Positions 12,645 to 25,781 of a DNA stretch of 64,000 nucleotides are shown here, piece after piece (position 1 is the first letter of the stretch; each line of letters opens with the position of its first letter). The translations under genes and the position numbers were made by a program. Under the pieces are notes generated by a model that was not told the origin of the DNA, did no database searches, and worked only from the letters and a program-made list of their open reading frames with translations. The stretch lies in NCBI GenBank assembly GCA_045614225.1, contig JAZLCO010000085.1, positions 4,164-68,163 of the forward strand, read 5' to 3'. The DNA is from Eggerthellaceae bacterium (lineage in GTDB: Bacteria > Actinomycetota > Coriobacteriia > Coriobacteriales > Eggerthellaceae).

Positions 12645-12731
<87 letters not shown>

Positions 12732-12733
12732 AG

Positions 12734-12762
12734 TCACCGCCCAATTTCGGGCGGTGATTTTT
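12734..12762 (+). terminator. rho-independent terminator of tRNA-Asp
   Basis: The stem tcaccgccc/gggcggtga is followed by ttttt. Confidence 0.75.
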
Positions 12763-12781: not shown

Positions 12782-12889
12782 GACCCCGTGGGTGCCCATG
12801 GAGTGCACACCGCGCGCATCGTTATACCGTAATCCTTATGATGCGAGCAGCATTTTTACCTGCACTTTTACTTACACTGCTATACGGCG
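12782..12889 (+). repeat. about 108-bp segment homologous to the island's right-end arm (38908-39033)
   Basis: A shared 22-bp core tttacctgcacttttacttaca lies at 12855-12876 and 38999-39020. The flanks gtgcacaccgc and atacggcg are also conserved. Confidence 0.7.
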
Positions 12890-15354
12890 ACACCGCTGTC
12901 ACTCAATTTCAGGACGTCACTTTTTCGCACCCGTATGACTGGTCTAAAGCCATGTGCGTCTTCTGCAACCGAACCCCATCCCTTGCATTCATCGCCGTAA
13001 GGGTCAAAGCATTCTGGCGTGGACTTCTTGCTTGCAGGAAGTCGCATCATCCAGCAAGCTCCCTTCTTCGAAATGCGTCCGTTGTTTTTGTACGATCCAA
13101 GACGGCGTCCAACATCGTGGGATTTCGCCACAGGCGTTGGCTGTGCTTCCCCGAGAGACATCGGGTTAAAGGCCCGCTCAGCTTCCTCGCGCGAAAGGAT
13201 GTATGCATAGTCTGTGGTCTCGAAGTATTCTTTTGTCCTGCTGTGCTGTGTTCGCACTGTGTTGGACAGCAACGATGCTCTCTCCTCGTCGGAAAAGACC
13301 GTATCGAGGAAGCCAGAGTTGAGCCAAGTGCGAAGCTCGCAGTCCTCCCAGGTCGTCTTGTGGGCTTGGCTGTCTATGGGAAGACAGTCAATCACATCCT
13401 TCGTGATGAGGAGGAAGGAATCGTCGTCATCGCCGATTACCAGCCATTCAAGAGGGGCTTTTTGCCATTCGCTGTCTTTAGGGTAATGGCCGAATTCGAT
13501 ACAGGCGTACATACCAAGCGTGTTTGACGAAACTTCGAAGGGATTGGCCCCGCCCCAGCAAACGGGAATATAGCCTCTTTTCGATTGCGCGTTTCCCGAC
13601 TTGAAATCATAGGCGATGCATACGGCTTCAGGCCGCTGATCGTCGGCTTGGAAACCCGCCTCGAAAGAGAAAGACGATACTGTTTTTTCGCCAGCGCATT
13701 CCAGTGCAGTCGCAAAGCGGCAGGCCGGCAACTCGAGGACTGAGCGAGAAATGAAATCTGCGATAGCGGAAGCGCTCGCCATGCGTGTAGAATCCCATTC
13801 CTCAACGGGCAAATCGACTCCATGGAGCGTTCTCTCTCGTGCAGCTTCCGCCCATTCTTCCAACACGTTTGAATAATCGAGCTCCTCGCCGTCATCGTCG
13901 ACGACGAGCCAGTACCCGTCAGCATATGTCTCGCATCTGAAGTGGATTTTTTCACTGCTATCAAACCCGACAACAATATCAATGAACGCATCGCCGCTCC
14001 TCGTGATTAAGTCAACGCCAACCAGATGCTTCTTCGGCGTCGGTTTTTTTTCGACGACGAGCCCCGTCTTCTGCTCTTTCGGTTTGGAAACCACTTTTCC
14101 AGATGGGACGGCGATACGCTCCGCGGCTTTCGCCAGCTTCTTCTCCTCCAGCAAGTCGTGCAATGCGATCACGACGGGGTCTTCGAATGAGCCGATATTC
14201 GCAATCGCGAATTCCGCGAGGTTGTTGCCGACCTTCGCGCTAACCTTCTTCTCGTCAGCTAGTAGCTCGATTGACCTTTCGAGGACGGAACGCGATTTCT
14301 CCTTCGCTTTTTCTCCGACGGCCTTCATCCAGATTTTCCCGGGCTGGTAAGCGAGCACGGTGGCCCAAACTTCTTCGTCATCTGGAAGAAACCGAACAAA
14401 GGGGGTGTCAATTTGCGTTTTCGTTGTCATCCTCCCAGCTGAATTGACCAATTCGACTGTCGCATCCGAAACCCAGTAACCGACGTCGAGTGCGCCCTGC
14501 CCGAGTTTTTCGAGGCTCGACGGAAGTACGAACTTCTTGACTGAAGTGTTGAAGAACGCATCCTTTCCGATGCGCTTCAATCCTTCTGAGAAGGTGACTT
14601 CCTCGAGAGATTTGCAGCCGTAGAACGCTGTGTCGTCGATTTCCTCAAGGCTAGCTGGAAACGCGATGCTTCTTATCTTGCACCGACGGCCGTCGTTCTG
14701 GCCGTCAAATGCAGATACGCCGATTCGCTTGAGCGTGTTGGGTATCTCGATTTCGACTAGGTTTTTGCAATTGTAGAATGACTCGTTGCCGATAGAGAGA
14801 AGCCCTTCGGGAAGCGCCACCTTCTTTACCTGGTCCCTTCCCCAAAAACCGAAGAAAGCCTTGTCGCCAATAGCGGTAATTTCATTAGGCACTACTACGT
14901 TTTCAGCGTTTCCCGTATATCTAATGAGAGCACCATTATCGACGACGAAATCTGGAAGCTCAACGAAACCGTCTGGCCCAACGCTAACAAGCTCATCCTC
15001 GACATACAGCGCAAGGCACCATTCGCCGATGCGGCCCGGATCGTCAAGCCATTCGCCGTTGCCAATGAGCTTCTCCTCCGGAACCTCTACGACATCAAGG
15101 GTCGAAAACGCGTTGGCGAACTTCTTGGACCAGGAGCTGTACTGCAACCATTGTGGTTTTAGCTCGACCTCTTGAAATTCGTCCAAAGATACGGAAGGGA
15201 ACTCGACCGCCTCACCAGTTACGATATTCCTGAGACTGACGCTTACAGCATCGGCGTTTCTGCCAACCTGCGGAGCATCGATAACCGTATACAAATCCCC
15301 TTGATACTCAATACAGATTCCGCGTTTTGGGTCAGTATGCACTGAATGGCTCAT
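12880..15354 (-). CDS. 824-aa multidomain protein: EF-P-like N-terminus, BspA-type LRR block, helical module, C-terminal DUF6273-like domain; no signal peptide
   Basis: LRR_5-type repeats are present (AFYGCKSLEEVTFSEGLKRIGKDAFF and others). The C-terminus LEWLVIGDDDDSFLLITKDVIDCLPI...WEDCELRTWLNSGFLDTVFSDEE resembles the DUF6273 pattern. The start overlaps the MoxR stop (ATGA). Confidence 0.6.
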   Translation of the reverse strand: MSHSVHTDPKRGICIEYQGDLYTVIDAPQVGRNADAVSVSLRNIVTGEAVEFPSVSLDEFQEVELKPQWLQYSSWSKKFANAFSTLDVVEVPEEKLIGNGEWLDDPGRIGEWCLALYVEDELVSVGPDGFVELPDFVVDNGALIRYTGNAENVVVPNEITAIGDKAFFGFWGRDQVKKVALPEGLLSIGNESFYNCKNLVEIEIPNTLKRIGVSAFDGQNDGRRCKIRSIAFPASLEEIDDTAFYGCKSLEEVTFSEGLKRIGKDAFFNTSVKKFVLPSSLEKLGQGALDVGYWVSDATVELVNSAGRMTTKTQIDTPFVRFLPDDEEVWATVLAYQPGKIWMKAVGEKAKEKSRSVLERSIELLADEKKVSAKVGNNLAEFAIANIGSFEDPVVIALHDLLEEKKLAKAAERIAVPSGKVVSKPKEQKTGLVVEKKPTPKKHLVGVDLITRSGDAFIDIVVGFDSSEKIHFRCETYADGYWLVVDDDGEELDYSNVLEEWAEAARERTLHGVDLPVEEWDSTRMASASAIADFISRSVLELPACRFATALECAGEKTVSSFSFEAGFQADDQRPEAVCIAYDFKSGNAQSKRGYIPVCWGGANPFEVSSNTLGMYACIEFGHYPKDSEWQKAPLEWLVIGDDDDSFLLITKDVIDCLPIDSQAHKTTWEDCELRTWLNSGFLDTVFSDEERASLLSNTVRTQHSRTKEYFETTDYAYILSREEAERAFNPMSLGEAQPTPVAKSHDVGRRLGSYKNNGRISKKGACWMMRLPASKKSTPECFDPYGDECKGWGSVAEDAHGFRPVIRVRKSDVLKLSDSGVAV

Positions 15355-16862
15355 TCCTGCCCCAATCCCTTTATCTCCTTCAATAGCTCCAGCCCACGCT
15401 CGGTGAACAGCAAGCTCTTGTTGTGCTTCATGAACTGCTCCGAGCCGTGCTCGCTCACAAGACGTATGAGAACGGGGTCTGCCGAGAGCTTCGTGACGTA
15501 GATAAGCGACTCTTGCGAGTCCTCTCCGAAAGCACCGTCCAGAAATACGAAAGTGTTACCGAGACCGCTGGTCGCACGTTTTACGAGCTCTGCTTGCTTT
15601 TTGCATTCCCCGTTGAATGCTTCCTTTGCAGCGCCAAAACCGTCATCACCGCCTGAAGCCTTGCTGGCAACAGCCACTCGAACCGTCTCCAAGACACGCA
15701 GGCGCTCAGCTTTGATGACCGCCTTGTTACCAACTTGACCCCTAGGGCGTTTGCCGACCTCGCTCGCCGCAGCAACCGCTTCGATTTTGCTCGCCACAAC
15801 CTGCGCTGGATCGGCGTTTTTCTTGAGCCGCGATTTCATGTCAAGCAAGTCTTTCCGGGCCAGCTTGAGCGCCTCTTCAAGCTCAATAGCAACGTGCGCG
15901 CGTTCGAGCATCGCATCTAGCAACAATCCAACCAGCGCCACCCTCTCGTCGAAGGAAGCGCCTGACGCGCGTGCCTGAATCGACGGGTCTGCAGTACCGG
16001 CGATGATGCTGGCAATCTTGTAATCGTCCTCGTATTTCCGGAACAGCTCGTAGTACACGCTGAAGTCCTGCGAAACCTCGTCGTCTTGAAGGTACCTGCC
16101 CGGAAGCGATGCGGGAGCGACCATCCCCTCGGCCTCGTAAGCCTGGAGCATACGCGACAAATCCTCCCATCCACGTGATGTCACTATCTTCGATCCGCGC
16201 GCCGCCGCCCTCACCTTGTAGAAGCTGCCGGGCTTTGCGTCGAGGTAGGTCGTCACGGCCGGGTGCACACCATGCGCAGCCGCGTACTCCTGCCATACGT
16301 CGAGGTCGGGTTCCACGTCAATTCTCATCAGCCTGTCGAGCATCGCAGGATCGAACTCGCGGGCGGCTCGGTTGTACTCGGGCGGATTGCCCGCCGTTAC
16401 AATGACCCATCCCTCAGGTAGACGGTGCATTCCGAACGTCTTGTACTGCAGGAACTGCAGCATCGCCGGAGCGAGCGTCTCCGATACGCAGTTCACCTCG
16501 TCGAGGAACAGGATTCCCTCGGCGACACCGCTCTCCTCGCGCGCACGATGCACTGCGGCGATTATCTCGGACATCGTGTACTCCGACACGTTGTAAGCCC
16601 GACCGTCGAACTCCTCCTCGGATATGAAAGGCAAACCGAGCGCGCTCTGGCGAGTATGGTGCGTGATGGAGTAGCTCACGAAGTTCACGCCAATCTCGTC
16701 GGCAATCTGCTCGACCACCGCCGTCTTGCCCACGCCCGGCGGCCCGAGCATGATGATGGGCCGTTGCATGCGAAATGGTATGCGGTACAGCCCGCGCTCG
16801 TCTTTGGAGAGGTATGCACGAACGGCCCCCTTGATCTGCTCGGATGCTTCTTTGATATTCAC
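15351..16862 (-). CDS. MoxR/AAA_5-type AAA+ ATPase with about 200-aa C-terminal extension
   Basis: Contains Walker A GPPGVGKT, Walker B ILFLDEVN, and VIVTAGNPPEYNRAAREFDPAMLDRL (sensor/arginine-finger region). Confidence 0.85.
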   Translation of the reverse strand: MNIKEASEQIKGAVRAYLSKDERGLYRIPFRMQRPIIMLGPPGVGKTAVVEQIADEIGVNFVSYSITHHTRQSALGLPFISEEEFDGRAYNVSEYTMSEIIAAVHRAREESGVAEGILFLDEVNCVSETLAPAMLQFLQYKTFGMHRLPEGWVIVTAGNPPEYNRAAREFDPAMLDRLMRIDVEPDLDVWQEYAAAHGVHPAVTTYLDAKPGSFYKVRAAARGSKIVTSRGWEDLSRMLQAYEAEGMVAPASLPGRYLQDDEVSQDFSVYYELFRKYEDDYKIASIIAGTADPSIQARASGASFDERVALVGLLLDAMLERAHVAIELEEALKLARKDLLDMKSRLKKNADPAQVVASKIEAVAAASEVGKRPRGQVGNKAVIKAERLRVLETVRVAVASKASGGDDGFGAAKEAFNGECKKQAELVKRATSGLGNTFVFLDGAFGEDSQESLIYVTKLSADPVLIRLVSEHGSEQFMKHNKSLLFTERGLELLKEIKGLGQE

Positions 16863-16878
16863 TCGTTCTCCGTTCGCC

Positions 16879-18489
16879 CTAATCTAGCAACAACGATTCT
16901 ATGTTGCTGTATTCCCCGAAATGGTTATCACGGTACTCTAGCAGCGCAGCAGCCAGCTCGGTAGCGCCGTTTTCAGATGCAATATTGACGTAATCGATTA
17001 TTTGGGCCAACGTAACGCCGTCCAATTCGTCCATTACCGTCATGTCGCCCGCCATAACGCGCGGATAAAAGCACACACAATCTAGGTACACAACGATGTG
17101 GTTCAATTTCCTCATTGTGATTCTCGAAGTCGGCTTGAACTCGATGATTTCCATCCTGTTGTCCAGAGATTTCCAGTCGAAGTCATGTTGCTTTATCTCA
17201 ACATCTACGTCATCGAACCAGATAGAAATACCGTGGTCGTTGTATTCGCCCATGTCAATATGGAGCCCGTGCTTCTCACGGCCCTTGAAGCGGTATGCGG
17301 GAATTAAGAAACCCTTGTACCGATTGCGCTCAATTGACTTCTTTGTCTTGACGACCACTCGCTCCCAGATTTGCTCGAATGGTTGCTTCAGCTCGTTTTT
17401 TGCAAAATAGTTTCGCCATGCGTTTATCTCAATCGCACTCATTTCAACGGGATGGGCAACTTTTATCGGCGATTTCCCTAATTCAACCGTCTCACCTGAA
17501 TACCTTTCAGGCTTTCCGCCATGCACGGTAAACGTCTTTCCGTCCTGCATCCACACTATTGTTTCGGCAAGGGCGCGCATCACGGGATTGGTCAAATAGG
17601 AGCTTTGCCAGCCATCAGAGGCGAAACCCTTTCCAGAGAGAAAATCATCGAACAGGATTACAGACCTGGCCTTGACGAGCTTTTTCGACTCCCTCTTGAG
17701 CATGGCGAAGTCCGCCTTAGCGGACTCGTATTTCTCCAAATCGGAGCCTCTTTTCGGAATCGACTTCATCTCCTTGCCGCCAGCTTGATCTCGGAGCCGC
17801 CATGACAGATCAGGCCCGAAATATGCGATTACGGTTCGCCCGCCCAGGTCGTACGCCTTCTCCTCGTTCGCATCTAAACCGACGTCGTCCATCTGCGAGC
17901 GGAGTTTATCGGGGCTTTGCCCGTGCTTGCTTGCATAGGTATCTAGATGCTTGATGGATTCGAAATAGCGCATCGCCGTCTTAGACTCGCTGAGAATGAG
18001 GGCGCCACGTGCTATATAAGCATTTCGTTTTGACATGGGATTCTTCCATTTTTCCCAGTCCGCTATCATTGCTATGAGCTTTTCGGCATGCGCGTCGTCT
18101 GCATACCTGCCATATGCAACTACCGCATCAGTTATCGGTTTTGCACGACCAAGCAGCCTTCCGATTGCGTCGCACAAATCGGCCTGTACGAGTTCGTCAG
18201 CCACCGAATCGACTTTGGCATCAATTTTCGCGCCCGCCCAGAAATCTTGCCCGCGTCCTGTTCGAGAACTGGGGTCCTTCGCTTTCTTAATGCCCATATC
18301 GGCAGGTATTTGCCTGGCGTACTCAGTGATGATGTACACCAGAACCGAAGGATGGCAGAGAAGGCCCGATCCGGAATACCTAACGTTCGGCTTAGTTGCA
18401 TCGTTAACCTTCAGCGCAAGCTGGTCCCACTTGATACGGCCTATCGCATCGGACGCCCTTTCGCTACTGCAGAAAGCTGTTTCCGACAT
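16879..18489 (-). CDS. DUF4132-like protein (MolR/YehI-type domain)
   Basis: NPVMRALAETIVWMQDGKTF ... VAHPVEMSAIEINAWRNYFAKNELKQPFEQIWERVV matches the DUF4132 pattern as I recall it (hPl...LvW ... HP..L...W ... QPF.Q..R). Confidence 0.6.
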   Translation of the reverse strand: MSETAFCSSERASDAIGRIKWDQLALKVNDATKPNVRYSGSGLLCHPSVLVYIITEYARQIPADMGIKKAKDPSSRTGRGQDFWAGAKIDAKVDSVADELVQADLCDAIGRLLGRAKPITDAVVAYGRYADDAHAEKLIAMIADWEKWKNPMSKRNAYIARGALILSESKTAMRYFESIKHLDTYASKHGQSPDKLRSQMDDVGLDANEEKAYDLGGRTVIAYFGPDLSWRLRDQAGGKEMKSIPKRGSDLEKYESAKADFAMLKRESKKLVKARSVILFDDFLSGKGFASDGWQSSYLTNPVMRALAETIVWMQDGKTFTVHGGKPERYSGETVELGKSPIKVAHPVEMSAIEINAWRNYFAKNELKQPFEQIWERVVVKTKKSIERNRYKGFLIPAYRFKGREKHGLHIDMGEYNDHGISIWFDDVDVEIKQHDFDWKSLDNRMEIIEFKPTSRITMRKLNHIVVYLDCVCFYPRVMAGDMTVMDELDGVTLAQIIDYVNIASENGATELAAALLEYRDNHFGEYSNIESLLLD

Positions 18490-18503
18490 CGCCTTCGCTC
18501 TTC

Positions 18504-19322
18504 CTATGCGCCAGCGAGAGCGCTAGAGACGCGCGGATCGCCCTCGAACTGAATCGTTGCCTTGGAAAGCTTTTTACCGCCTTCCTTCAGCATGACCTGC
18601 AATCGCTTCATGTTCTCACCATCAATACAATCGAAATGGTTCAGAGCATAAGCAACGAGCTGAGACGCCTTCTTGGGAATTAGTTCCCCTTCTCCAGAAA
18701 TAAGCTCGATTGCTTTGCTGAATACCCGACCAGCATTGTCACTGTTGCTTTGCGCTTCTACTGCCTTGATCCAGTTGGCGTGGTTTTGGAATGCGAGCAC
18801 ATTCGCAAGTGCTTCGACGTTATCGGATAAGCATGGTATGAGAGAGACGTTTAGCTGCTCTTTCGTCGCCGTCCGCTTAGCAATTTCGGGCATTTCAACG
18901 ACATCCACGGCCTTCAACGACGGCACGTCGTCAAGAGGATCGCCCTTGAATGCGCCGGAAATCTTCTCTATGCTCGGCGGTAAAATAACCTGTTTCAAAT
19001 CAGCCACCCCTGCGAATGCGCTTTCTCCTATCTCGGTTACGCCATCAGATACGATTACTTCTTTCAGCCTATAGCAGCCATAAAATGCATATGAGCCAAT
19101 GGCTTTAACCGTCGACGGTATGGTAATCGTCTTTATACCCGCTCCTACAAATGCGCGTACACCTATTGTTTCCAGGCCCTCCGGGAGCTTAACCTCGGCC
19201 AGTTCACGTTGATTGAAGAAAGCCTCATATGCTATCTCCTTGATACCATCTGGGACCGTCACTATGTCGTCATTTCCTTCATATTTGACGAGCTTGCCTT
19301 CGTTTATCTCAAAACTTGCCAT
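18504..19322 (-). CDS. 272-aa cytoplasmic BspA-type LRR protein with C-terminal helical module
   Basis: Contains LRR_5 repeats (EAFFNQRELAEVKLPEGLETIGVRAFVGAGIKTITIPSTVKAIGSYAFYGCYRLKEV). No signal peptide is visible. Confidence 0.65.
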   Translation of the reverse strand: MASFEINEGKLVKYEGNDDIVTVPDGIKEIAYEAFFNQRELAEVKLPEGLETIGVRAFVGAGIKTITIPSTVKAIGSYAFYGCYRLKEVIVSDGVTEIGESAFAGVADLKQVILPPSIEKISGAFKGDPLDDVPSLKAVDVVEMPEIAKRTATKEQLNVSLIPCLSDNVEALANVLAFQNHANWIKAVEAQSNSDNAGRVFSKAIELISGEGELIPKKASQLVAYALNHFDCIDGENMKRLQVMLKEGGKKLSKATIQFEGDPRVSSALAGA

Positions 19323-19419
19323 ACTGCTCCTCTCATCCTTTCATGTTGCAACCGTCGCTGTTAAACGCTGAACCCACCTTGCTTTGCTATCTAAGACTTT
19401 CGCAATGCTCATCCAGCCT

Positions 19420-21396: not shown

Positions 21397-23065
21397 CCCG
21401 TCCTCCTATCTCGCTATCGCCAATGTGTTCGATTGCTTCATCGTATATCACTATCTGCGCTGCCCATGGCGGCACGCTTTCCTTCCTGTAATTATCGTCG
21501 TAAAAGACGAATGCGGCCTTGTAGTCGGGTATCCACTCGGGGTAAGCGCCAAAGCCATCTGTGAAGTACACCAAGCCGCCAAGGTTCTCGAACTCGCCAT
21601 CCTCGACGAGCTTGTCGACGTAGGCGAATGCGGGGCGGAAGTCGGTGCCGCCGCTCCCGAAAAGCCTCATCCTCCGACCCCATTCCTTCAACTCAGCCAA
21701 GTTGGTTATCGTATCGTCGGAGCGCACGGCGGCATCGCACTGGATGATCCGCACGTGCACGCGCTCGAAGAATGCCTCAGTCGATTTCAATATGTCGAAC
21801 GTCGTGTCGACGAATCGGCGCACGGTGCCGCCCCACACCGACCCACTCGTGTCGATGACGATGACGAACTCGCGAATGCGCTTCTCCTCGCGGTATTCAA
21901 GTGGCTCTATGAGCGGCAAGTTGCCGTACAGCTTCAGGCCGTAGGTGTAGAAGACGTAGTCAAATTCGTCTTCCGACACCTTGATCACCTCGCCGGGAAT
22001 CGCAAACTGCCTCAGGAAGTCTGCGTAGTCGACGCGGGTACGGGACGATTCCTCGAGCTCGTCAACGAGCCCGCTCAAGACCTTGCCCCTGCCTTTTGAA
22101 TAGGTTTGCAGGTTGATTGCCAGGCTCTTCGCCACGCGTCGCCATCCCTCCATCTCGGCGTTCCTGCTCGGACGAGCAACCTCTCTGAGAAACGCGCCCC
22201 TTCTAACGGATGCAACGCTTGCGGCATAGCTGCCAGGCAATCGACCTTGGCCTGATCTGGGAGCATCCGTGCTACCGACTGGGCCGCCGTTATCCGAGCC
22301 ATTCTCCCCCCGCGACGCCGATTGACCAGATTCGCCTACGCCACTTGCCATTCCACCAGCATCGCCGATGTCGTTTGATTCGCCGGCACCTTCACCATCG
22401 TGACGTGAGCCGCCTTCGCCGATTTCATCCAACCCTTGCAGGCCATTGACCCCTGATGTTTGCTCGCCGGTTCCGGGATGCTGTCCCTCGCCAGCCCCAG
22501 CATCACCCGCATTCCCATCGTCAGCTGAAGATAGGTACCAGGGCATATGGTCGTCGGCGGCGAACAGGAGCTCCCAGTCACCGACGTTATCGGACCACCT
22601 TCCAGCGCGTAGCTCGCGGTACACTTTCTCGGCGCTCAGACGAGGGCCCATAACTTCCTCGATTTCCCCAATCGCTGATTCGATGCACTTCGCGCGCCTC
22701 CCCCCGCGCGTACCGCACACCTCCGAAACGAGCTTCTCGACCACAATGTCGCAAGCAACGTCCCACAGTCTCCCGTCAATCATCGGCCCCACGTATGGAT
22801 GCAGGAAGACGCAGTGGAGTACAGAATGCAGGAAATCGTGCTTGGGCGGTTCCTTTGCGTTCAGGAACATGCTGCAGACCTGGGCAGAGTCTATGCCGAG
22901 CTCGAAGCCGTTTGTTGCCATGGGCATGAGGAAGCGTCCGGGCACCATCCTCAATCTGCCGACGGCGGCTGATAGGAAGTGGTTATCTGCAAGAACTAGG
23001 GCTTTCGCGAGCTCGATTACCTTAACGGCCGCGAGGTCCTGATTTGTTAAATCGCTGCTTTCCAA
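21386..23065 (-). CDS. VWA-domain protein with N-terminal putative metallopeptidase-like domain (DUF2201-type) and a Gly/Ser/Asp/Glu-rich linker
   Basis: The MIDAS motif VIVIDTSGSVWG is present, with FGSGGTDF downstream. The N-terminal half has a His-rich LHSVLHCVFLHPYV, and a low-complexity linker lies between the two halves. This is the classic genomic partner of MoxR ATPases. Confidence 0.75.
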   Translation of the reverse strand: MESSDLTNQDLAAVKVIELAKALVLADNHFLSAAVGRLRMVPGRFLMPMATNGFELGIDSAQVCSMFLNAKEPPKHDFLHSVLHCVFLHPYVGPMIDGRLWDVACDIVVEKLVSEVCGTRGGRRAKCIESAIGEIEEVMGPRLSAEKVYRELRAGRWSDNVGDWELLFAADDHMPWYLSSADDGNAGDAGAGEGQHPGTGEQTSGVNGLQGLDEIGEGGSRHDGEGAGESNDIGDAGGMASGVGESGQSASRGENGSDNGGPVGSTDAPRSGQGRLPGSYAASVASVRRGAFLREVARPSRNAEMEGWRRVAKSLAINLQTYSKGRGKVLSGLVDELEESSRTRVDYADFLRQFAIPGEVIKVSEDEFDYVFYTYGLKLYGNLPLIEPLEYREEKRIREFVIVIDTSGSVWGGTVRRFVDTTFDILKSTEAFFERVHVRIIQCDAAVRSDDTITNLAELKEWGRRMRLFGSGGTDFRPAFAYVDKLVEDGEFENLGGLVYFTDGFGAYPEWIPDYKAAFVFYDDNYRKESVPPWAAQIVIYDEAIEHIGDSEIGGRDGR

Positions 23066-23067
23066 TC

Positions 23068-25578
23068 TTAGAGCTCCAAGCTATTGGCGGAGGCGCCCTC
23101 GAACATGTTTCCTTTCAGATCCATGAGCAGAGCCGCGGTCGAAGCCTTCCCCGCTGAAGAAGCGGACTCTATCGCCTTTTGCATCATTTTTTCAGTAATT
23201 GCACCATCCCATTTGCAGACAATCTTAATCTCGGAATCGTACCCGCTTTGCGCTAGCAGGTTCAGCAACGCACCCGTATTCTTAAAGCCCTTTGGGTCTA
23301 GATGCGGTACGAGCGCTCTGACGACTTCGGGATCTTGCTTGAGGTAGCGTTGATCCCACATGCTGGAAATGCGCTCAGGCGCAATCGAACAGACGGCTTT
23401 TGCGACGACGGTCGAGCAACCGGGGTACAGTAGGTCTTCGATATCGCATATATCTGCATGATGGTTCTGAGGCCCTCGCTGAACGTGCAGGGTAACGTAT
23501 TCCTCGTTCAGGCCGCCGCACTTTGCGAGCAATCTGGCAAGCTTAGGTTTTGGTTTTCCGCACATGTATATGGAATCTGATGATTCCGCGAGGCATGCGA
23601 GCATCAAGCCTTTCAGGTCCTTTGGGCAGAGCATGCCCTCTTCCGCATATGCGGATACAAGGCCATCGCTCTTCGATGACAGGGCGCATTGGTATATATA
23701 GTCAGGATTCGGCGGCGTATCCACATGTCGCCCGACACCCATCCTCCCCGGAATGTCGAGACCGTCTTCGCAAAGGACATCGTCAATGTATCGCTTTTGC
23801 CTGTTTGCCTGTTTTGAAAACGTGTCCCCTTTGAGCAAGGCGGGGACCATCGGCATCCCGAGAGTCACACCATGCTCCATCAGAGTTCGGGCGTTGTCGT
23901 CGTTCCCGAAGGCGATTGCATAACACAGGGCAATACTCGGCATCTCGAACTTTCCGAAGATTGCATAAAGCCGCTCTACGACCTCCGCATCACCCTTAAT
24001 TGCCCCATATTTAAGCAACCTCACGGCTTCGATGGGATTGACCTTGCCTGCAACGGGATCTAAGGCGTCAAGGCCGCTCGCATCGCCCTTGCGCATCGCC
24101 TCGATTGCCGCTGCGGTTAACTGCGCCACGCTCGCCCTTTTGGGTTTCGCCGCATCCTCTTTTGCTTTTTGCGCAAGCCCAGCAGACCTATATCCCAACT
24201 CCTCTAGCAATCTGGAACAGACGACGTCGCCGTCTTCGTCGAATGCCTTCGCCGCCTTCTTCGCATTTTTCTTAATGTATGCGGCATACTCGTCTTCCAT
24301 CGCACCACCGACAGCATGTCCGCACTTGGAATCAACGAGCCTCGTGACGGCAACCCTAATCTTATCCTCGAACTTCTTGATGCTCCCGTCATGGAAGCGG
24401 GAGTCGATTGCGTCGAAAGCGATACCGCTCGACAGTTCTGCAGCAATCGCGCCAGTGAGGTTTCCCTCGGGGGGAGTGTAGCCAGCCCGTGCGCAGCCTG
24501 CACCGTCTGCGCTGGCAACTGCGACGACGGTTCCCTTTGACGCTGCTAGATGCTCTTCAAAAGCACTTGCACAAGCGCTCGGCAGAATCACTGACTTTGT
24601 CCCGTAAAACGCCCCAGGAGCGATACTCTTCACCGTTTCGGGGATGGCCAAGGAGAGCTTAGCGCATTCCTCAAAGGCTCCCTCTTCTATGGTTATCAAA
24701 CTATCGGGAAGGTTGATTTCGCTGAAATCATACCTGCAACCATAGAACATATTTTCTGCGATTGCCGTTATCCCATCACCCAATTTTGCAGATTTAAGGT
24801 GCGAGCAATCGCTAAAAGCGCCATTTCGAGTTACTACGGTGTGGCCGAAAACGTTCCTGTTTCGTGTGGTCTCATGCGAAAAAGCATTAATACCTGAAGG
24901 TATGGTTACGTTTTTGACTCCAGAATATGCGAAAGCCCTTGGGCAGACTTCTTCAATATTGGAAGTGAGCACAACCATGTTAATAGTTGTTTTCTTGAAT
25001 GCGCCGGGAGCAATCCTTTTAACAGACTCTGGAACCACAAACTTCTTGACGGGTTTCTGCGTTGGCGGGAATAGCGCTAGCGTTTCGCCGCCGTCGGTGT
25101 ACAGGACTCCGTCAACGGATACGTTAGCCATTCCATCTCCGACAACTTTAATCGGACCATCGCAGCCATATCGAGTGCTATTAATTTCCGCACCTGCGGA
25201 AATGATAACCTCGTCGAATAGCGGTTCATTTGAATAAGAAACCCCCATCATCGGAAATGCTTCGAACCGCCTGACGCGGCGCAAATCGCATACCCCTTCG
25301 ACGATTTCCATATCCCTCGGGTCATCGCTTACGGAGTAGGTGACGACGCCCTTCACGTACCGGATATCCTCTATCGCTTCAGCCGCCATCACCTCGAGCG
25401 TATCGGGCAGGAGGAGGTATTTCACCTTGGAGCCATAACGGATGCACCCCTTTCCCAAAGAGCGTACACCGTAGGGGACAATCGCTCTGCCGTCGGGCTC
25501 TATGGCGGGAATCTCTCTAAGACGCCCGCTGTCGTCCGCAAACCCTGATCGAATGGCCTCTTCAAGATTCATAATCAC
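23068..25578 (-). CDS. 836-aa cytoplasmic LRR (BspA-type) plus ankyrin/helical-repeat protein
   Basis: Contains LRR_5 repeats (NMFYGCRYDFSEINLPDSLITIEEGAFEECAKL). The segment ALCYAIAFGNDDNARTLMEHGVTL is ankyrin-like. No signal peptide is visible. Confidence 0.6.
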   Translation of the reverse strand: MIMNLEEAIRSGFADDSGRLREIPAIEPDGRAIVPYGVRSLGKGCIRYGSKVKYLLLPDTLEVMAAEAIEDIRYVKGVVTYSVSDDPRDMEIVEGVCDLRRVRRFEAFPMMGVSYSNEPLFDEVIISAGAEINSTRYGCDGPIKVVGDGMANVSVDGVLYTDGGETLALFPPTQKPVKKFVVPESVKRIAPGAFKKTTINMVVLTSNIEEVCPRAFAYSGVKNVTIPSGINAFSHETTRNRNVFGHTVVTRNGAFSDCSHLKSAKLGDGITAIAENMFYGCRYDFSEINLPDSLITIEEGAFEECAKLSLAIPETVKSIAPGAFYGTKSVILPSACASAFEEHLAASKGTVVAVASADGAGCARAGYTPPEGNLTGAIAAELSSGIAFDAIDSRFHDGSIKKFEDKIRVAVTRLVDSKCGHAVGGAMEDEYAAYIKKNAKKAAKAFDEDGDVVCSRLLEELGYRSAGLAQKAKEDAAKPKRASVAQLTAAAIEAMRKGDASGLDALDPVAGKVNPIEAVRLLKYGAIKGDAEVVERLYAIFGKFEMPSIALCYAIAFGNDDNARTLMEHGVTLGMPMVPALLKGDTFSKQANRQKRYIDDVLCEDGLDIPGRMGVGRHVDTPPNPDYIYQCALSSKSDGLVSAYAEEGMLCPKDLKGLMLACLAESSDSIYMCGKPKPKLARLLAKCGGLNEEYVTLHVQRGPQNHHADICDIEDLLYPGCSTVVAKAVCSIAPERISSMWDQRYLKQDPEVVRALVPHLDPKGFKNTGALLNLLAQSGYDSEIKIVCKWDGAITEKMMQKAIESASSAGKASTAALLMDLKGNMFEGASANSLEL

Positions 25579-25580
25579 TC

Positions 25581-25781
25581 CTATCCATCAGTGGAGAATC
25601 TGCGCAAATCAACACCTATTCGTTCAGCCATCTCACAAAGCTCCTCGCCGCTCGCTCTTTCAACGTCAACAACGTCGAGCACAGCAGCTGAAAACCCCGA
25701 CATCATCGCCGAGCCGCAGTAGTCAAGCATGTAGTTGTGAAGTTTGTCTACGTCGATAGTTGCCAACTTTCTCCCTTGCAT
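25581..25781 (-). CDS. 66-aa hypothetical protein, first gene of the eight-gene operon
   Basis: The ORF ends 2 nt before the next start. A degraded paralogue lies just upstream (25975-26163). Confidence 0.5.
   Translation of the reverse strand: MQGRKLATIDVDKLHNYMLDYCGSAMMSGFSAAVLDVVDVERASGEELCEMAERIGVDLRRFSTDG

What the first reader, a model, noticed from the sequence alone, without database searches (positions are those of the whole stretch)
12880..25781. Eight-gene MoxR / VWA / DUF4132 / cytoplasmic-LRR / ankyrin-like operon: candidate undescribed NTPase-driven system
Eight co-directional genes are separated by -11 to +97 nt, and several stop/start codons overlap. In transcription order they encode the following products.
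- a 66-aa protein
- an 836-aa LRR plus ankyrin-like protein
- a VWA protein with a metallopeptidase-like N-domain and a MIDAS motif
- a 658-aa repeat protein
- a 272-aa LRR protein
- a DUF4132-like protein
- a MoxR AAA+ ATPase
- an 824-aa EF-P-like/LRR/DUF6273-like protein
MoxR-VWA pairs are known chaperone-like remodelling modules and have been proposed on comparative-genomic grounds to power conflict systems. The combination of MoxR, VWA and DUF4132 recalls the uncharacterised E. coli yehI-yehQ locus. None of the three LRR proteins has a signal peptide, which argues against the usual BspA-like surface-protein role. It favours intracellular ligand or target recognition, that is, sensor arms. 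The location inside a tRNA-borne island next to an R-M system fits a phage or MGE-defence role, or another conflict role. I know of no named system with this composition.
Basis: partly seen in the sequence, partly recalled or inferred. Interest (0 to 1): 0.85.

Follow-up and report, generated by a model that had tools for sequence, protein, structure and literature searches.

The report
MoxR-like ATPase/VWA operon with LRR-ankyrin adaptors
This eight-gene operon is real and is an elaborate member of a large, unstudied family of gut-bacterial ATPase-plus-VWA "motor" pairs that come with swappable cytoplasmic leucine-rich-repeat/ankyrin proteins sharing one docking tail; it sits in a mobile island next to restriction genes, but what it acts on is still unknown.

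Summary
Eight co-directional minus-strand genes lie at 12880-25781, with gaps of -11 to +97 nt, and the domain calls are essentially right.

The eight-gene set is not the conserved unit. The conserved core is a dyad: a DUF2201_N+VWA protein (g3) plus a divergent MoxR-like AAA+ (g7). Full-length relatives occur in at least 584 species-representative genomes of gut Clostridia and Coriobacteriia. VWA was next to the AAA gene in 81 of 85 loci.

Around the dyad sit 0-9 variable cytoplasmic accessory proteins. They combine BspA-type LRR_5 with a ~330-aa ankyrin-like module. That module usually ends in acidic residues plus hydrophobic-x-Leu-COOH (40/53 versus 77/1195 background ORFs). g2, g4 and g6 all carry this tail. 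DUF4132, DUF6273, BRCT and EF-P-like heads are occasional.

Two database proteins fuse the ankyrin module to the VWA protein. The g3 family keeps three invariant His but has lost the HExxH glutamate, which phage homologues retain.

The operon lies in a 26.4-kb tRNA-Asp island bounded by 68-nt direct repeats and shared with an R-M system. There is no PADLOC match, no effector domain, and no clear defence enrichment at other loci.

Best reading: an ATP-driven remodelling machine with exchangeable adaptors, possibly conflict-related.

The parts
25581..25781 (-). g1, small ORF of 66 aa (60 aa if it starts at the TTG at 25766, which follows a GGGAG). First gene of the operon; function unknown.
   Evidence: ORF list and sequence. 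No Pfam, NCBIfam or PADLOC hit. Relatives were found only in L001 (Olsenella intestinalis). One intact copy lies directly upstream of its VWA gene, at 46% identity. One disrupted copy lies upstream of its first LRR gene.
25990..26163 (-). Degenerate g1-like copy with an in-frame stop, in the 470-nt gap upstream of g1.
   Evidence: tblastn of g1 against the window: 38% identity over 58 aa, E 7e-8, with an internal stop. Also seen by eye.
23068..25578 (-). g2, 836 aa. Layout: N-terminal region of unknown type, then LRR_5 (~160-345), a middle region, then an ankyrin-like tail module (~507-836) ending ...ANSLEL-COOH.
   Evidence: Pfam LRR_5, 84 bits. PDB sequence hits are only to BspA-type LRR proteins. 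The C-terminal 340 aa are paralogous to g4 313-642 (E 2e-15). The module recurs in 62 ORFs of 42 loci. Ank_2 hits are.
21386..23065 (-). g3, 559 aa, core component. Layout: zincin-like N-domain (1-180; H80-x3-H84-x4-H89, no catalytic Glu), disordered Gly/Ser/Asp-rich linker (180-297), helical segment (301-380), VWA domain (399-540) with an intact MIDAS (D405-T-S407-G-S409, T474, D503).
   Evidence: - Pfam DUF2201 and DUF2201_N.
- AF2 model m449d2b1a1ef2: N-domain pLDDT ~90, linker below 50.
- Foldseek PDB: VWA domains, TM-score (target-normalised) 0.6-0.68.
- Foldseek BFVD: both domains match phage 'metallopeptidase/VWA-like' proteins, E 1e-13.
- Invariant residues in 48 homologues.
- Position 81 is never Glu in 75 sequences.
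- NCBI's gene call is 520 aa, but homologues align with 97-98% of the 559-aa form.
19420..21396 (-). g4, 658 aa. N-terminal ~310 aa of unknown type, then an ankyrin-like tail module (~342-658) ending ...MKPLEL-COOH.
   Evidence: No Pfam hit and no PDB sequence hit. Paralogous to the g2 C-terminus. Iterated HMM hits are, and the alignment is A4. The N-domain was found in no other locus.
18504..19322 (-). g5, 272 aa: LRR_5 plus a helical module paralogous to g8 162-410. It has no L-x-L tail.
   Evidence: Pfam LRR_5, 89 bits. g5 6-255 versus g8 162-410: 32% identity, E 6e-34. The helical module was found in only 3 loci.
16879..18489 (-). g6, 536 aa: helical N-region, DUF4132 (238-396), then the last unit of the ankyrin-like tail module (~475-536) ending ...IESLLLD-COOH.
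   Evidence: - Pfam DUF4132, 84.6 bits.
- Similar to the E. coli YehI C-terminal part: E 3e-11, 22% identity over 335 aa.
- YehI itself lacks the tail.
- Only 9 word-index homologues were found, and most are LRR_5::DUF4132 fusions.
- The tail was recognised by the HMMs.
15351..16862 (-). g7, 503 aa, core component: a divergent MoxR-like AAA+ ATPase. Motifs: Walker A GPPGVGKT (40-47), Walker B LFLDE (118-122), sensor-1 N159, D176-R177. It has an H2-insert hairpin (80-93), a PS1 hairpin (~142-147), a lid, and a long helical C-terminal domain (261-502).
   Evidence: - Pfam AAA and AAA_5 above their cut-offs; AAA_3 and bpMoxR below.
- Invariant residues in 48 homologues.
- AF2 model m99eccf6c4c96, mean pLDDT 85, with secondary structure.
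- Best Foldseek PDB hits are NorQ and NorQD (E 3e-5), closely followed by FtsH and Cdc48.
- PDB sequence and profile searches match only the Walker A region.
12880..15354 (-). g8, 824 aa: EF-P domain I/II-like N-terminus (8-133), LRR_5 (~140-300), helical module, unknown middle region, then DUF6273 (645-809).
   Evidence: Pfam LRR_5 136 bits, DUF6273 45 bits, EFP_N 23.9 bits. NCBIfam efp, E 6e-6, over residues 8-133. PDB hits are only to LRR proteins.
12645..12721 (+). tRNA-Asp (GTC), convergent with g8. It is the integration site of the island.
   Evidence: ARAGORN. Rfam tRNA, 67.5 bits.
12669..12736 (+). Left copy of the 68-nt direct repeat: the 3' two-thirds of tRNA-Asp plus 15 nt.
   Evidence: the repeat finder family D1: 99% identical copy 26,362 nt away. 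An exact 26-mer match was found against 0 expected by chance.
39031..39098 (+). Right copy of the 68-nt direct repeat, a partial tRNA-Asp that marks the right end of the 26.4-kb island. A third, degenerate copy lies at 41955-41980.
   Evidence: GC is 0.49-0.565 inside the island and 0.57-0.625 outside.

Best explanation
The operon is an expanded member of a widespread, undescribed family of two-gene motors found in gut Clostridia and Coriobacteriia.

Components
- Motor: a MoxR-like AAA+ ATPase (g7). By analogy with other MoxR proteins it is inferred to form a hexamer.
- Partner: g3, which combines a zincin-like but Glu-less metal-site domain, a long disordered linker, and a MIDAS-bearing VWA domain.

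Proposed mechanism, by analogy with solved MoxR/VWA pairs (NorQ/NorD; from my own knowledge also CbbQ/CbbO, RavA/ViaA and Rea1 with its MIDAS domain)
1. The VWA domain docks on the ATPase ring.
2. ATP hydrolysis pulls or twists the partner's linker.
3. This remodels whatever the partner holds.

Accessory proteins
- What the partner holds is supplied by a variable set of cytoplasmic accessory proteins, here g2, g4 and g6, and probably g5 and g8.
- Each is built from protein-binding heads: BspA-type LRR_5, DUF4132, lectin-like DUF6273, or an EF-P-like fold.
- The heads are joined to a common ankyrin-like module. Its acidic, hydrophobic-x-Leu C-terminal tail is proposed to be the docking signal for g3.
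- The accessory proteins would therefore act as exchangeable adaptors, or as clients.

Role
- No catalytic effector is encoded, so the output is mechanical remodelling rather than cleavage or NAD/nucleotide chemistry.
- In this genome the operon is cargo of a tRNA-Asp island that otherwise carries restriction-type genes. A role in conflict with phages or mobile elements is therefore the most likely biological setting, but it is not shown.

Shown versus inferred
- Shown: the gene set, the folds, motif conservation, dyad linkage, the shared tail, the fusions, and the island borders.
- Inferred: hexamer formation, docking of the tail on g3, the adaptor role, and any defence function.
For: Dyad linkage
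- The VWA gene lies on the same strand as the AAA gene in 81 of 85 loci. It is upstream of the AAA gene in all loci except L053.
- Full-length AAA relatives occur in at least 584 species-representative genomes.

Catalytic competence
- Walker A/B, sensor 1 and D176-R177 are invariant in 48 AAA homologues.
- The MIDAS residues D405, S407, S409, T474 and D503 are invariant in 48 VWA homologues.

Fold
- The AAA model shows H2-insert and PS1 hairpins, and its best PDB match is NorQ/NorQD.
- The VWA fold is confirmed.
- g3 has the same N-domain, linker and VWA order that is functionally important in NorD (paper PMC13036017).

Shared tail
- The ankyrin-like module recurs in 55 of 88 loci.
- 40 of 53 proteins that carry the module at their C-terminus end in hydrophobic-x-L, against 77 of 1195 background ORFs.
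- 53 of 94 hits from a global search also end this way.

Physical link
- P0288 and P0317 fuse the ankyrin module, without its L-x-L tail, directly in front of DUF2201_N+VWA. In L095 the fusion gene is followed by the AAA gene.
- g6 is a DUF4132 protein that has acquired the tail, which E. coli YehI lacks.

Cytoplasmic location
- Only 3 of 114 accessory ORFs have signal-peptide-like N-termini.

Accessory turnover
- Between the window and its closest sequenced relative, the AAA is 80% and the VWA 63% identical. The accessory proteins share only repeat-level similarity.

Island context
- 68-nt direct repeats, lower GC, and a type II R-M system plus an SNF2/Cas4-like cluster as co-cargo.
Against: - No experiment and no complex prediction supports docking of the tail on g3. 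The tail could instead bind the AAA C-terminal domain or an unlinked partner.
- In some proteins the L-x-L motif is followed by further domains (BRCT, DUF6273). A free carboxylate is therefore not always required.
- g5 and g8 lack the tail.
- 19 of 79 loci with the core show no accessory ORF, although some of these contigs are truncated.
- Tandem accessory paralogues do not show a constant docking part and a hypervariable sensing part.
- The MoxR assignment is fold-level only. FtsH and Cdc48 score almost as well as NorQ, and overall TM-scores are low because of the long helical tail.
- Against a defence setting specifically:
  - There is no PADLOC hit.
  - There is no effector domain.
  - Only about 10 of 91 flanking ORFs at 18 other loci match any PADLOC model, none of them R-M or CRISPR, and there was no control set.
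  - Some loci sit between ordinary metabolic genes.
Confidence: 0.55

Rival explanations
1. A bona fide anti-phage or anti-MGE defence system. The cytoplasmic LRR, ankyrin and DUF4132 proteins would be sensors that recognise invader proteins. The MoxR-VWA pair would transduce this into an abortive or neutralising response.
For: - In the window the operon is cargo of a 26.4-kb tRNA-Asp island. The rest of that island is a type II R-M system and an SNF2/Cas4-like/RNAP-alpha-CTD cluster.
- The chromosomal position is not conserved between relatives.
- Accessory genes turn over much faster than the core.
- Two systems occur in one MAG: L007 and L020 are both from assembly SFII01.
- L086 has SbcCD, an ATPase_2/DUF234 protein, and SLFN-type and Cas3-like helicases as neighbours. 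L004 has ParE and a PDC-S27 hit as neighbours.
- MoxR-vWA modules have been proposed, and recently shown, to serve threat sensing (PMC7159879; PMC13622651).
Against: - No protein of the operon matches PADLOC-DB beyond the P-loop.
- No nuclease, protease, TIR, pore-forming or other effector domain is present, and the only peptidase-like motif has lost its catalytic Glu throughout the family.
- Flanks of 18 other loci carry few defence hits.
- Loci L002 and L003 lie among asparaginase, arginine deiminase and murB genes.
- Only 2 of 2.9 million IMG/VR contigs carry a close relative, and no plasmid does. The system is therefore not typically carried by mobile elements.
Confidence: 0.3
2. A housekeeping chaperone or assembly system. 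The LRR/ankyrin proteins would be clients rather than adaptors. The AAA-VWA pair would fold, assemble, load with metal or recycle these large repeat proteins, or a complex built from them. The island location in this genome would be incidental.
For: - All characterised MoxR/VWA pairs are maturation or remodelling chaperones for specific client complexes (NorQD papers PMC9976466 and PMC13036017).
- g3 keeps three invariant His residues, a possible metal site.
- The family is very common in one habitat and in two phyla.
- Some loci are embedded among metabolic genes.
- No effector is encoded.
Against: - Accessory content ranges from 0 to 9 genes per locus, and the accessory genes are not orthologous even between close relatives. 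This is unusual for a dedicated chaperone-client pair.
- The locus position is variable, and in the window it is on an island.
- Heads as different as DUF4132, BRCT, DUF6273 and an EF-P-like fold share the same tail. That fits adaptors better than a single client class.
Confidence: 0.2
3. A domesticated phage module acting on DNA replication or repair, or on translation complexes. The dyad would derive from the AAA+DUF2201 pair of N4-like and other phages. It would remodel nucleoprotein complexes, with the accessory heads giving target choice.
For: - The AAA has remote relatives (~22% identity) in 616 phage records.
- In Vibrio phage SBP1 the MoxR-like ATPase and a DUF2201_N+DUF2201 'metallopeptidase' lie next to the helicase and DNA polymerase genes.
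- The g3 model matches phage proteins over both domains, E 1e-13.
- BRCT heads occur on the ankyrin module.
- From my own knowledge, DUF4132 is joined to the nucleic-acid-binding WGR domain in YehI/MolR-type proteins. One search shows a WGR+LRR+DUF4132 protein in Leptospira.
- g8 has an EF-P-like N-terminus.
Against: - The phage proteins keep a true HExxH motif and have no LRR or ankyrin partners, so their mode of action may differ.
- No DNA-binding or nuclease domain is present in the operon.
- The function of the phage dyad is itself unknown; no literature was found.
- BRCT, DUF4132 and EF-P-like heads are rare within the family.
Confidence: 0.1
4. Not one system. The eight genes would be a chance juxtaposition of a VWA-AAA pair with unrelated BspA-like genes, which are abundant in these genomes.
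For: - LRR_5 genes are very common in gut Firmicutes (my own knowledge).
- Operon status was not shown by promoter or terminator evidence.
- Three signal-peptide-bearing LRR neighbours (L025, L034) look like ordinary surface proteins.
Against: - LRR/ankyrin genes are inserted between the VWA and AAA genes in many loci from different families, on the same strand and tightly spaced.
- The shared tail is enriched more than tenfold over background.
- The ankyrin module is fused to the VWA protein in P0288 and P0317.
- In the window, stop and start codons overlap or lie 2-16 nt apart.
Confidence: 0.05

Closest known systems
NorQ/NorD, with the related CbbQ/CbbO, RavA/ViaA and CoxD/CoxE pairs: MoxR-class AAA+ ATPases and their VWA partner proteins
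   Same: - An AAA+ with H2-insert and PS1 hairpins, paired with a partner that carries a C-terminal MIDAS-type VWA domain behind an N-domain and a flexible linker.
- NorQ and NorQD are the best structural matches of the g7 model.
- The published mechanism is that a VWA finger enters the ring pore and the linker is twisted and stretched (PMC13036017). This gives the working model used here.
   Different: - g7 is not a member of any named MoxR subfamily by sequence. AAA_3 and bpMoxR score below cut-off, and PDB sequence and profile searches match only the Walker A region.
- g7 has an extra ~240-aa helical C-terminal domain.
- The g3 VWA belongs to DUF2201, and its N-domain is a Glu-less zincin-like domain.
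- No metalloenzyme client is encoded nearby. Instead there is a variable set of LRR/ankyrin proteins.
AAA + DUF2201_N/DUF2201 ('MoxR-like ATPase' + 'metallopeptidase/VWA-like protein') gene pair of N4-like (Schitoviridae) and other phages
   Same: - The same two Pfam families are found in one protein (DUF2201_N + DUF2201), next to a related ATPase.
- The g3 model aligns over both domains with phage proteins, E 1e-13.
- tblastn of g7 finds 616 phage records.
   Different: - Identity is only ~22-24%.
- The phage proteins keep the canonical HExxH motif (HETWH...H), whereas the window family has H-[VITMS]-x-x-H.
- The phage proteins are shorter, with no long disordered linker and no helical C-terminal domain on the ATPase.
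- Gene order is ATPase first.
- No LRR or ankyrin accessory genes are present.
- The function of the phage pair is also unknown.
E. coli yehI-yehK-yehL-yehM-yehP-yehQ locus
   Same: It combines a DUF4132 protein with a MoxR-class AAA+ and a VWA protein, and it is uncharacterised. g6 is a genuine relative of the YehI C-terminal part (E 3e-11).
   Different: - YehL is a strong AAA_5 member (116 bits) and YehP is a VWA_CoxE protein. Neither is significantly similar to g7 or g3.
- There are no DUF5682 (YehM) or SWIM (YehQ) equivalents in the window.
- YehI lacks the ankyrin-like tail.
- DUF4132 is present in only ~10% of loci of the window's family.
MoxR-vWA 'ternary' conflict systems (Kaur, Burroughs, Iyer and Aravind 2020, PMC7159879) and the Esr threat-sensing pathway of Actinomycetales (PMC13622651)
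   Same: A MoxR+vWA pair is coupled to variable repeat-containing proteins that are proposed to be sensors. Both are predicted or shown to act in biological conflict.
   Different: - Those systems have VMAP or beta-propeller third components, effector-associated domains, peptidase, TIR or kinase/FHA outputs. They are tied to multicellular or filamentous prokaryotes.
- Here the third component is an LRR_5/ankyrin protein with an L-x-L tail, and there is no effector or signalling domain.
- The hosts are unicellular gut anaerobes.
- The 2020 paper does not mention DUF4132 or SWIM and mentions LRR once.
Rea1/Midasin with its MIDAS domain and the adaptors Ytm1 and Rsa4 (a working analogue only; from my own knowledge)
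   Same: An AAA_5-class motor uses a MIDAS/VWA domain to grasp a conserved acidic element of interchangeable adaptor proteins and pull them off a large complex. Midasin is among the best PDB sequence hits of g7, though over the Walker A region only.
   Different: It is a eukaryotic single-chain giant with six AAA modules, and its adaptors use UBL domains. No homology is claimed beyond AAA+ and VWA.

Membership tests
MoxR-class AAA+ ATPase | AAA+ core with Walker A, Walker B, sensor 1 and an arginine in the 'LDR' motif | tested here: met
   GPPGVGKT, LFLDE, N159 and D176-R177 are present and invariant in 48 homologues.
MoxR-class AAA+ ATPase | Helix-2 insert beta-hairpin and pre-sensor-1 beta-hairpin (my own knowledge of AAA+ classification) | tested here: met
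   The AF2 model (pLDDT 85) has strands 80-85/88-93 between beta2 and alpha2. It also has a short hairpin at ~142-147 before beta4. This rests on a model only; no solved structure exists.
MoxR-class AAA+ ATPase | Scores above cut-off with MoxR-specific profiles (Pfam AAA_3, bpMoxR) | tested here: not met
   AAA_3 scores 19.4 bits against a cut-off of 27, and bpMoxR 22 bits against 27. Only the generic AAA (42 bits) and AAA_5 (37 bits) pass.
MoxR-class AAA+ ATPase | Closest solved structures are MoxR proteins | tested here: inconclusive
   NorQ and NorQD rank first (E 3e-5 to 2e-4), but FtsH and Cdc48 follow at 1e-4 to 4e-4, and global TM-scores are low.
MoxR-class AAA+ ATPase | Encoded with a MIDAS-bearing VWA partner | tested here: met
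   VWA is in the same operon here. It is on the same strand next to the AAA gene in 81/85 related loci. The MIDAS residues are invariant.
DUF2201_N 'putative metallopeptidase' (zincin) | HExxH catalytic motif | tested here: not met
   The motif is H80-S-V-L-H84...H89. Position 81 is V, I, T, M or S and never E in 75 family members. The phage homologue has HETWH. Three His residues and D106/E110 are invariant, so metal binding remains possible.
VWA / MIDAS domain (DUF2201) | VWA fold with DxSxS...T...D | tested here: met
   Pfam DUF2201, 39.9 bits against a cut-off of 26.4. Foldseek TM-score 0.6-0.68 to CLCA1 and VWF A2 domains. D405, S407, S409, T474 and D503 are invariant.
E. coli yehI-yehQ type locus | DUF4132 protein | tested here: met
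   g6 scores 84.6 bits with DUF4132 and E 3e-11 against YehI.
E. coli yehI-yehQ type locus | YehL-type AAA_5, YehP-type VWA_CoxE, DUF5682 (YehM) and SWIM (YehQ) proteins | tested here: not met
   g7 versus YehL gives E 1.7 and g3 versus YehP gives E 0.5. The Pfam families differ. No DUF5682 or SWIM hit occurs in the operon.
MoxR-vWA ternary conflict systems (Kaur et al. 2020) | Third component of VMAP, beta-propeller or FtsH type, plus effector or effector-associated domains | tested here: not met
   No such Pfam families occur in any of the eight products. bpMoxR scores below cut-off.
Known or candidate anti-phage systems in PADLOC-DB v2.0.0 | Match of system proteins to a PADLOC model | tested here: not met
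   Only weak P-loop matches of g7 to IetA, mad8 and RtcR (E >= 1e-4). There is nothing for the other seven products. DefenseFinder was not available.
BspA-like surface LRR proteins | LRR_5 repeats | tested here: met
   g2 84 bits, g5 89 bits, g8 136 bits. PDB relatives are BspA-type LRR proteins.
BspA-like surface LRR proteins | Signal peptide or cell-surface anchoring | tested here: not met
   A hydropathy heuristic finds no signal-peptide or transmembrane-like segment in g2, g5 or g8, and only 3 of 114 related accessory ORFs have one. This is a heuristic; SignalP was not run.
tRNA-integrated genomic island | Direct repeats formed by the tRNA 3' part at both ends, with deviating composition | tested here: met
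   A 68-nt repeat at 12669-12736 and 39031-39098, 99% identical. GC is 0.49-0.565 inside and 0.57-0.625 outside.
tRNA-integrated genomic island | Integrase gene | tested here: not met
   No recombinase family appears among the island ORFs scanned with Pfam. ORFs shorter than 150 aa were not scanned. The island may be degenerate.

The most novel reading that the evidence does not exclude
This would be a new class of effector-less immune machine in gut bacteria. A panel of interchangeable cytoplasmic LRR, ankyrin, lectin-like and DUF4132 receptors would each be tagged with an acidic L-x-L tail. The tail would dock them on a pseudo-zincin/VWA adaptor. They would hand bound invader proteins or assemblies (for example phage structural or replication complexes) to a MoxR-like AAA+ ring, which would disassemble them mechanically. 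The dyad would have been captured from phages, whose versions still have an active HExxH motif.
Probability: 0.2. Interest if true: 0.85.

Novelty: new variant of a known kind. Interest (0 to 1): 0.65.

Why it matters
- MoxR/VWA pairs are among the most common uncharacterised ATPase modules in prokaryotes. Only a few, all metalloenzyme chaperones, are understood.
- This family is abundant in human and animal gut Clostridia and Coriobacteriia, with relatives in at least 584 species representatives. To my knowledge, and within the literature I could search, it is undescribed.
- The family gives a concrete, testable architecture: a motor, a VWA adaptor, and exchangeable LRR/ankyrin proteins marked by a short C-terminal tail.
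- That architecture offers an entry point to three open questions:
  - what cytoplasmic BspA-type LRR proteins do;
  - what DUF4132 and DUF2201 do;
  - whether MoxR-VWA modules can serve as receptor-coupled remodelling or immune devices in ordinary unicellular bacteria.
- If the function turns out to be defence, it would be unusual in having no enzymatic effector.

Tried and rejected
- PADLOC on the eight products: only P-loop noise.
- NCBIfam: no family-level names.
- PDB sequence searches: g3, g4 and g6 gave no hits. g7, alone and as a profile, matched only the Walker A region.
- Full-text literature searches found nothing describing this gene set. Terms searched: DUF4132; DUF2201; PF09967, PF13203 and COG3864; yehL/yehP; MoxR with LRR and anti-phage; Schitoviridae with MoxR.
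- Exact-sequence contig look-up of the window's own AAA protein: not on record.
- Promoter and terminator consensus scan: fewer hits than in shuffles, so uninformative for operon borders.
- Rfam on the island: only the tRNA.
- Test for a constant docking part and a hypervariable LRR part in tandem paralogues (L035, L040). Rejected, because both parts diverge about equally: 32-63% versus 41-57% identity.
- Phage carriage. Only 2 close hits in IMG/VR and none covering at least 80% in plasmids. Seven unverified faecal virome scaffolds carry the AAA gene, but I could not check them for phage genes.
- PADLOC scan of 91 ORFs flanking 18 low-GC loci. About 10 hit something, mostly PDC candidate families, with no R-M or CRISPR. 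There was no control set, so the result is inconclusive.
- Idea that the tail is part of DUF4132 itself. Rejected, because E. coli YehI lacks it.
- Idea that g3 is an inverted zincin (HxxEH). Rejected, because position 83 is L, M, A or F.
- The N-domain of g3 found no match in the PDB fold search, because VWA hits dominate the list.

Full report
**1. Observation**

| gene | coordinates | length |
|---|---|---|
| g1 | 25581-25781 | 66 aa |
| g2 | 23068-25578 | 836 aa |
| g3 | 21386-23065 | 559 aa |
| g4 | 19420-21396 | 658 aa |
| g5 | 18504-19322 | 272 aa |
| g6 | 16879-18489 | 536 aa |
| g7 | 15351-16862 | 503 aa |
| g8 | 12880-15354 | 824 aa |

- The gaps are 2, 2, -11, 97, 14, 16 and -4 nt.
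- Pfam confirms LRR_5 in g2, g5 and g8, DUF2201 (VWA) with a sub-threshold DUF2201_N in g3, and DUF4132 in g6.
- It also confirms AAA and AAA_5 in g7, and EFP_N plus DUF6273 in g8. g1 and g4 have no hit.
- NCBIfam adds only an EF-P-like stretch, g8 residues 8-133.
- None of the products has a signal-peptide or membrane-like segment by a hydropathy heuristic.
- Operon status rests on strand and spacing. The consensus promoter/terminator scan was uninformative.

**2. Internal paralogy**

- An all-against-all BLASTP shows that the C-terminal ~340 aa of g2 and of g4 are paralogous (E 2e-15).
- It also shows that g5 (6-255) matches g8 (162-410), covering the LRR and a following helical module (E 6e-34).
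- The g2/g4 module is ankyrin-like. 15 of 21 copies from various loci hit Pfam Ank_2, best E 2.8e-6.

**3. The two core proteins**

*g7*
- It has intact Walker A/B, sensor 1 and the 'LDR' arginine, all invariant in 48 homologues.
- By sequence it is far from anything solved. Only the Walker A region matches VCP or midasin, even with a profile.
- An AlphaFold2 model (pLDDT 85) shows an AAA+ core with a helix-2 insert hairpin (80-93) and a pre-sensor-1 hairpin.
- The model continues with a lid and a ~240-aa helical C-terminal domain.
- Its best PDB matches are NorQ and the NorQ-NorD complexes, narrowly ahead of FtsH and Cdc48.
- I therefore call it MoxR-like at fold level, and not a member of a named MoxR subfamily. 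AAA_3 and bpMoxR score below cut-off.

*g3*
- The model has a well-predicted N-domain (1-180), a disordered Gly/Ser/Asp-rich linker (180-297), a helical segment and a VWA domain.
- The VWA fold matches solved VWA domains. The MIDAS residues D405, S407, S409, T474 and D503 are invariant.
- The N-domain belongs to DUF2201_N, the 'putative metallopeptidase' family. In 75 family members the motif is H-[VITMS]-x-x-H-C-x-x-x-H.
- All three His residues are invariant, and the catalytic Glu is never present.
- Phage relatives match the g3 model over both domains (E 1e-13). The one I examined keeps a true HExxH, HETWHVVFQH.

**4. What is conserved elsewhere**

- The AAA protein has more than 8000 word-index hits, the best from Olsenella, Eggerthellaceae and Adlercreutzia.
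- A scan of one genome per species found at least 584 genomes encoding a full-length relative at 45-63% identity.
- Those genomes are Coriobacteriia and Clostridia (Oscillospiraceae, Lachnospiraceae, Acutalibacteraceae, Ruminococcus), mostly gut or rumen MAGs.

In 85 fetched loci:

| module | loci |
|---|---|
| VWA | 81 |
| LRR_5 | 51 |
| DUF4132 | 7 |
| DUF6273 | 2 |

- The VWA gene is on the same strand and upstream of the AAA gene, with one exception.
- The LRR_5 count is by single-sequence tblastn.
- I then did my own ORF calling and iterated HMM searches on 88 loci. These showed that the ankyrin-like module of g2 and g4, and its last ~135 aa in g6, occurs in 57-76 ORFs. It is usually fused to LRR_5 and can be either N- or C-terminal.
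- Counting the module anywhere in a protein, it is present in 55 of the 88 loci.
- The locus architectures range from 'VWA | AAA' through 'VWA | AAA | LRR+ANK' to arrays with four to nine accessory genes. Accessory genes often sit between the VWA and AAA genes.
- 60 of 79 loci with the core have at least one accessory ORF.
- The window's eight-gene arrangement is therefore one elaborate variant, and DUF4132 is an occasional component.
- The homologues of g6 found in the big protein database are few (9) and are mostly LRR_5::DUF4132 fusions.
- One of them lies in a locus with the order VWA, LRR_5, AAA, a 744-aa protein, DUF4132, LRR_5::DUF4132.

**5. A shared C-terminal tail**

- When the ankyrin-like module is C-terminal, the protein typically ends with '...A-x-LL-[ED]-Y-[KR]-N'. 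This is followed by 10-20 acidic or variable residues and then hydrophobic-x-Leu at the very end. Examples are EFTLE, DIWEL, DEYEL, NSLEL (g2), KPLEL (g4) and SLLLD (g6).
- 40 of 53 such proteins fit this ending, against 77 of 1195 other ORFs in the same loci. 34 of the 53 end in Leu.
- I also searched 1.84 billion representative proteins with a profile of the three window copies. It found 95 hits, and 53 of the 94 I examined end the same way, mostly LEL, LLL, LTL or LAL.
- E. coli YehI, the DUF4132 prototype, lacks this tail. g6 is therefore a DUF4132 protein that has acquired the family's tail.
- In a few proteins the motif is internal and is followed by BRCT or DUF6273.

**6. Fusion evidence**

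- Two representatives, P0288 (950 aa) and P0317 (1014 aa), consist of the ankyrin-like module, without the L-x-L tail, followed by DUF2201_N and the DUF2201 VWA domain.
- In the contig carrying P0288, the next gene is the AAA, frameshifted in that assembly.
- This is classic fusion-type evidence that the ankyrin module works together with the VWA protein. It also suggests, though it does not prove, that the tail docks on or near the g3 N-domain.

**7. Genomic setting in the window**

- A 68-nt direct repeat made of the 3' two-thirds of tRNA-Asp plus 15 nt lies at 12669-12736 and again at 39031-39098, at 99% identity. A third, degenerate copy is at 41955-41980.
- The enclosed 26.4 kb has lower GC, 0.49-0.565 against 0.57-0.625 outside.
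- The island contains the operon, a degenerate g1 copy, two small unknown ORFs, a four-gene cluster and a type II R-M pair.
  - The four-gene cluster is a DUF2779/Cas4-like nuclease, an SNF2 helicase, a 411-aa protein and a 1185-aa protein. The 1185-aa protein has two RNAP alpha-CTD-like domains and a sigma-70 region 4.
  - The R-M pair is a C5 methyltransferase and a Sau3AI/MutH-like endonuclease.
- No integrase was found.
- The left flank (ThiF, EamA, RibF, ECF transporter, SSF) and the right flank (oxidoreductases, AMP-binding enzyme) are ordinary.
- The 'tRNA-borne island next to R-M' statement is therefore correct and now has borders.

**8. Is it a defence system?**

*For*
- The island context described above.
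- Non-conserved chromosomal positions in relatives.
- Very fast turnover of the accessory genes. Against the closest sequenced relative the AAA is 80% and the VWA 63% identical, but the accessory proteins share only repeat-level similarity.
- Two systems in one MAG.
- Defence-like neighbours at some loci.

*Against*
- No PADLOC match.
- No effector domain of any kind, and a peptidase motif that is dead by the usual criterion.
- Some loci lie among metabolic genes.
- Only about 10 of 91 immediately flanking ORFs at 18 loci hit any PADLOC model. These were mostly single-gene candidate families, with no R-M or CRISPR, and there was no control set.
- The system is essentially chromosomal: 2 close hits in IMG/VR and none in plasmids.

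I rate a defence or conflict role as plausible but unproven, at about 0.3-0.35.

**9. Mechanism I consider most likely (inference)**

- g7 forms a ring.
- The g3 VWA domain binds the ring, as in NorQ/NorD. There, a VWA finger enters the pore and the ATPase twists and stretches the partner's linker (PMC13036017).
- The long disordered linker of g3 would transmit force to its N-domain.
- The accessory proteins dock through the ankyrin module and L-x-L tail, and they bring targets bound by their LRR_5, DUF4132, DUF6273 or EF-P-like heads.
- The output is mechanical remodelling.

Rival readings, each scored in the report sections:
- the accessory proteins are clients of a housekeeping chaperone;
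- the dyad is a domesticated phage module acting on nucleoprotein complexes, given that the phage homologues sit next to helicase and polymerase genes, and given the BRCT, DUF4132/WGR and EF-P-like heads;
- the genes are merely juxtaposed.

**10. Comparison with known systems**

- The closest characterised relatives in how it would work are the MoxR/VWA chaperones.
- The closest relatives in sequence and fold are the uncharacterised AAA+DUF2201 pairs of N4-like and other phages.
- The E. coli yeh locus shares only DUF4132 and the domain classes.
- The Aravind-type MoxR-vWA ternary systems, and the recently described Esr pathway, share the logic of motor plus vWA plus variable repeat protein. 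They do not share the components, and they have explicit effectors or signalling outputs.
- I found no description of this family in the searchable literature.

**11. Verdict**

- The finding is a new variant of the MoxR/VWA theme rather than a categorically new kind of system.
- It is widespread in gut bacteria and unstudied. It now has a specific, testable architecture: the dyad, exchangeable LRR/ankyrin proteins and a shared L-x-L tail.
- Interest 0.65.

Noticed in passing
window 27834-35984 (minus strand): A tightly packed four-gene cluster lies in the same island:
- a DUF2779/Cas4-like nuclease, 495 aa;
- an SNF2-family helicase, 625 aa, whose best PADLOC hits are ZorD, DpdE and DrmD-type helicases;
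- a 411-aa protein with no hit;
- a 1185-aa protein with two RNA polymerase alpha-CTD-like domains and a sigma-70 region 4, with a weak PglW-like hit.
It matches no complete PADLOC system, so it is a candidate uncharacterised defence-type system.
   Followed up: partly
window 36009-38800 (minus strand): A type II restriction-modification pair: a C5 cytosine methyltransferase (427 aa; PADLOC MTase_II, E 2e-150) and an endonuclease with two MutH/Sau3AI-like domains (464 aa; REase_II, E 4e-82). It sits at the right end of the island.
   Followed up: yes
window 12669-12736, 39031-39098, 41955-41980; also 12855-12889 and 38999-39033: - The island is bounded by 68-nt direct repeats of the tRNA-Asp 3' part.
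- A third, degenerate copy lies 2.9 kb further right. This suggests a second small islet (39.1-42.0 kb) holding a 550-aa ABC_tran_2-like ORF at 39459-41111.
- A separate 35-nt repeat lies 119 nt inside the left end and directly abuts the right repeat, which hints at a more complex or tandem integration history.
- No integrase was found.
   Followed up: partly
window 25990-26163 (minus strand); L001 3252-3410 and 8167-8334: g1-like small ORFs occur as an intact copy plus a degenerate copy both in the window and in Olsenella intestinalis. Each copy sits just upstream of an LRR or VWA gene. Function is unknown, and they were found only in the closest relatives.
   Followed up: partly
window 26252-27121 and 27249-27710 (minus strand): Two ORFs lie between the operon and the SNF2 cluster. 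One is 289 aa with no family hit. The other is 153 aa with a sub-threshold Cthe_2314-like HEPN match (E 6e-4, 20 bits against a cut-off of 27).
   Followed up: no
L089 (Vibrio phage vB_VspP_SBP1) 5995-8737: This N4-like phage carries a 'MoxR-like ATPase', an HNH endonuclease and a DUF2201_N+DUF2201 protein with an intact HExxH, immediately upstream of its helicase and DNA polymerase genes. tblastn finds such ATPases in 616 phage records. The function of this phage pair appears to be unknown.
   Followed up: partly
phage-collection hits H1-H7 (MT835935.1 and six other 'Bacteriophage sp.' faecal scaffolds; L090): Seven unverified, unannotated human faecal virome scaffolds of 4-15 kb encode close relatives of the AAA protein, at 41-53% identity. 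I could not check whether they are true phage genomes or bacterial DNA in virome preparations.
   Followed up: no
window 12880-15354, g8 residues 8-133: The N-terminus of g8 resembles EF-P domains I and II (KOW-like plus OB). The loop that carries the modified lysine in EF-P reads VGRNADAV instead of the PGKG-type sequence (read by eye against my memory of E. coli EF-P). This head was found in no other locus.
   Followed up: partly
L007 and L020 (both from assembly SFII01, Coriobacteriaceae MAG W1P20.047): One genome carries two divergent copies of the dyad, with AAA proteins 63% and 48% identical to g7.
   Followed up: no
P0290, P0263, P0323; L062 7182-9320: Some ankyrin-tail proteins carry a C-terminal BRCT domain after the L-x-L motif. 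Pfam BRCT gives E 2e-7 for P0290; the others were judged by eye.
   Followed up: partly
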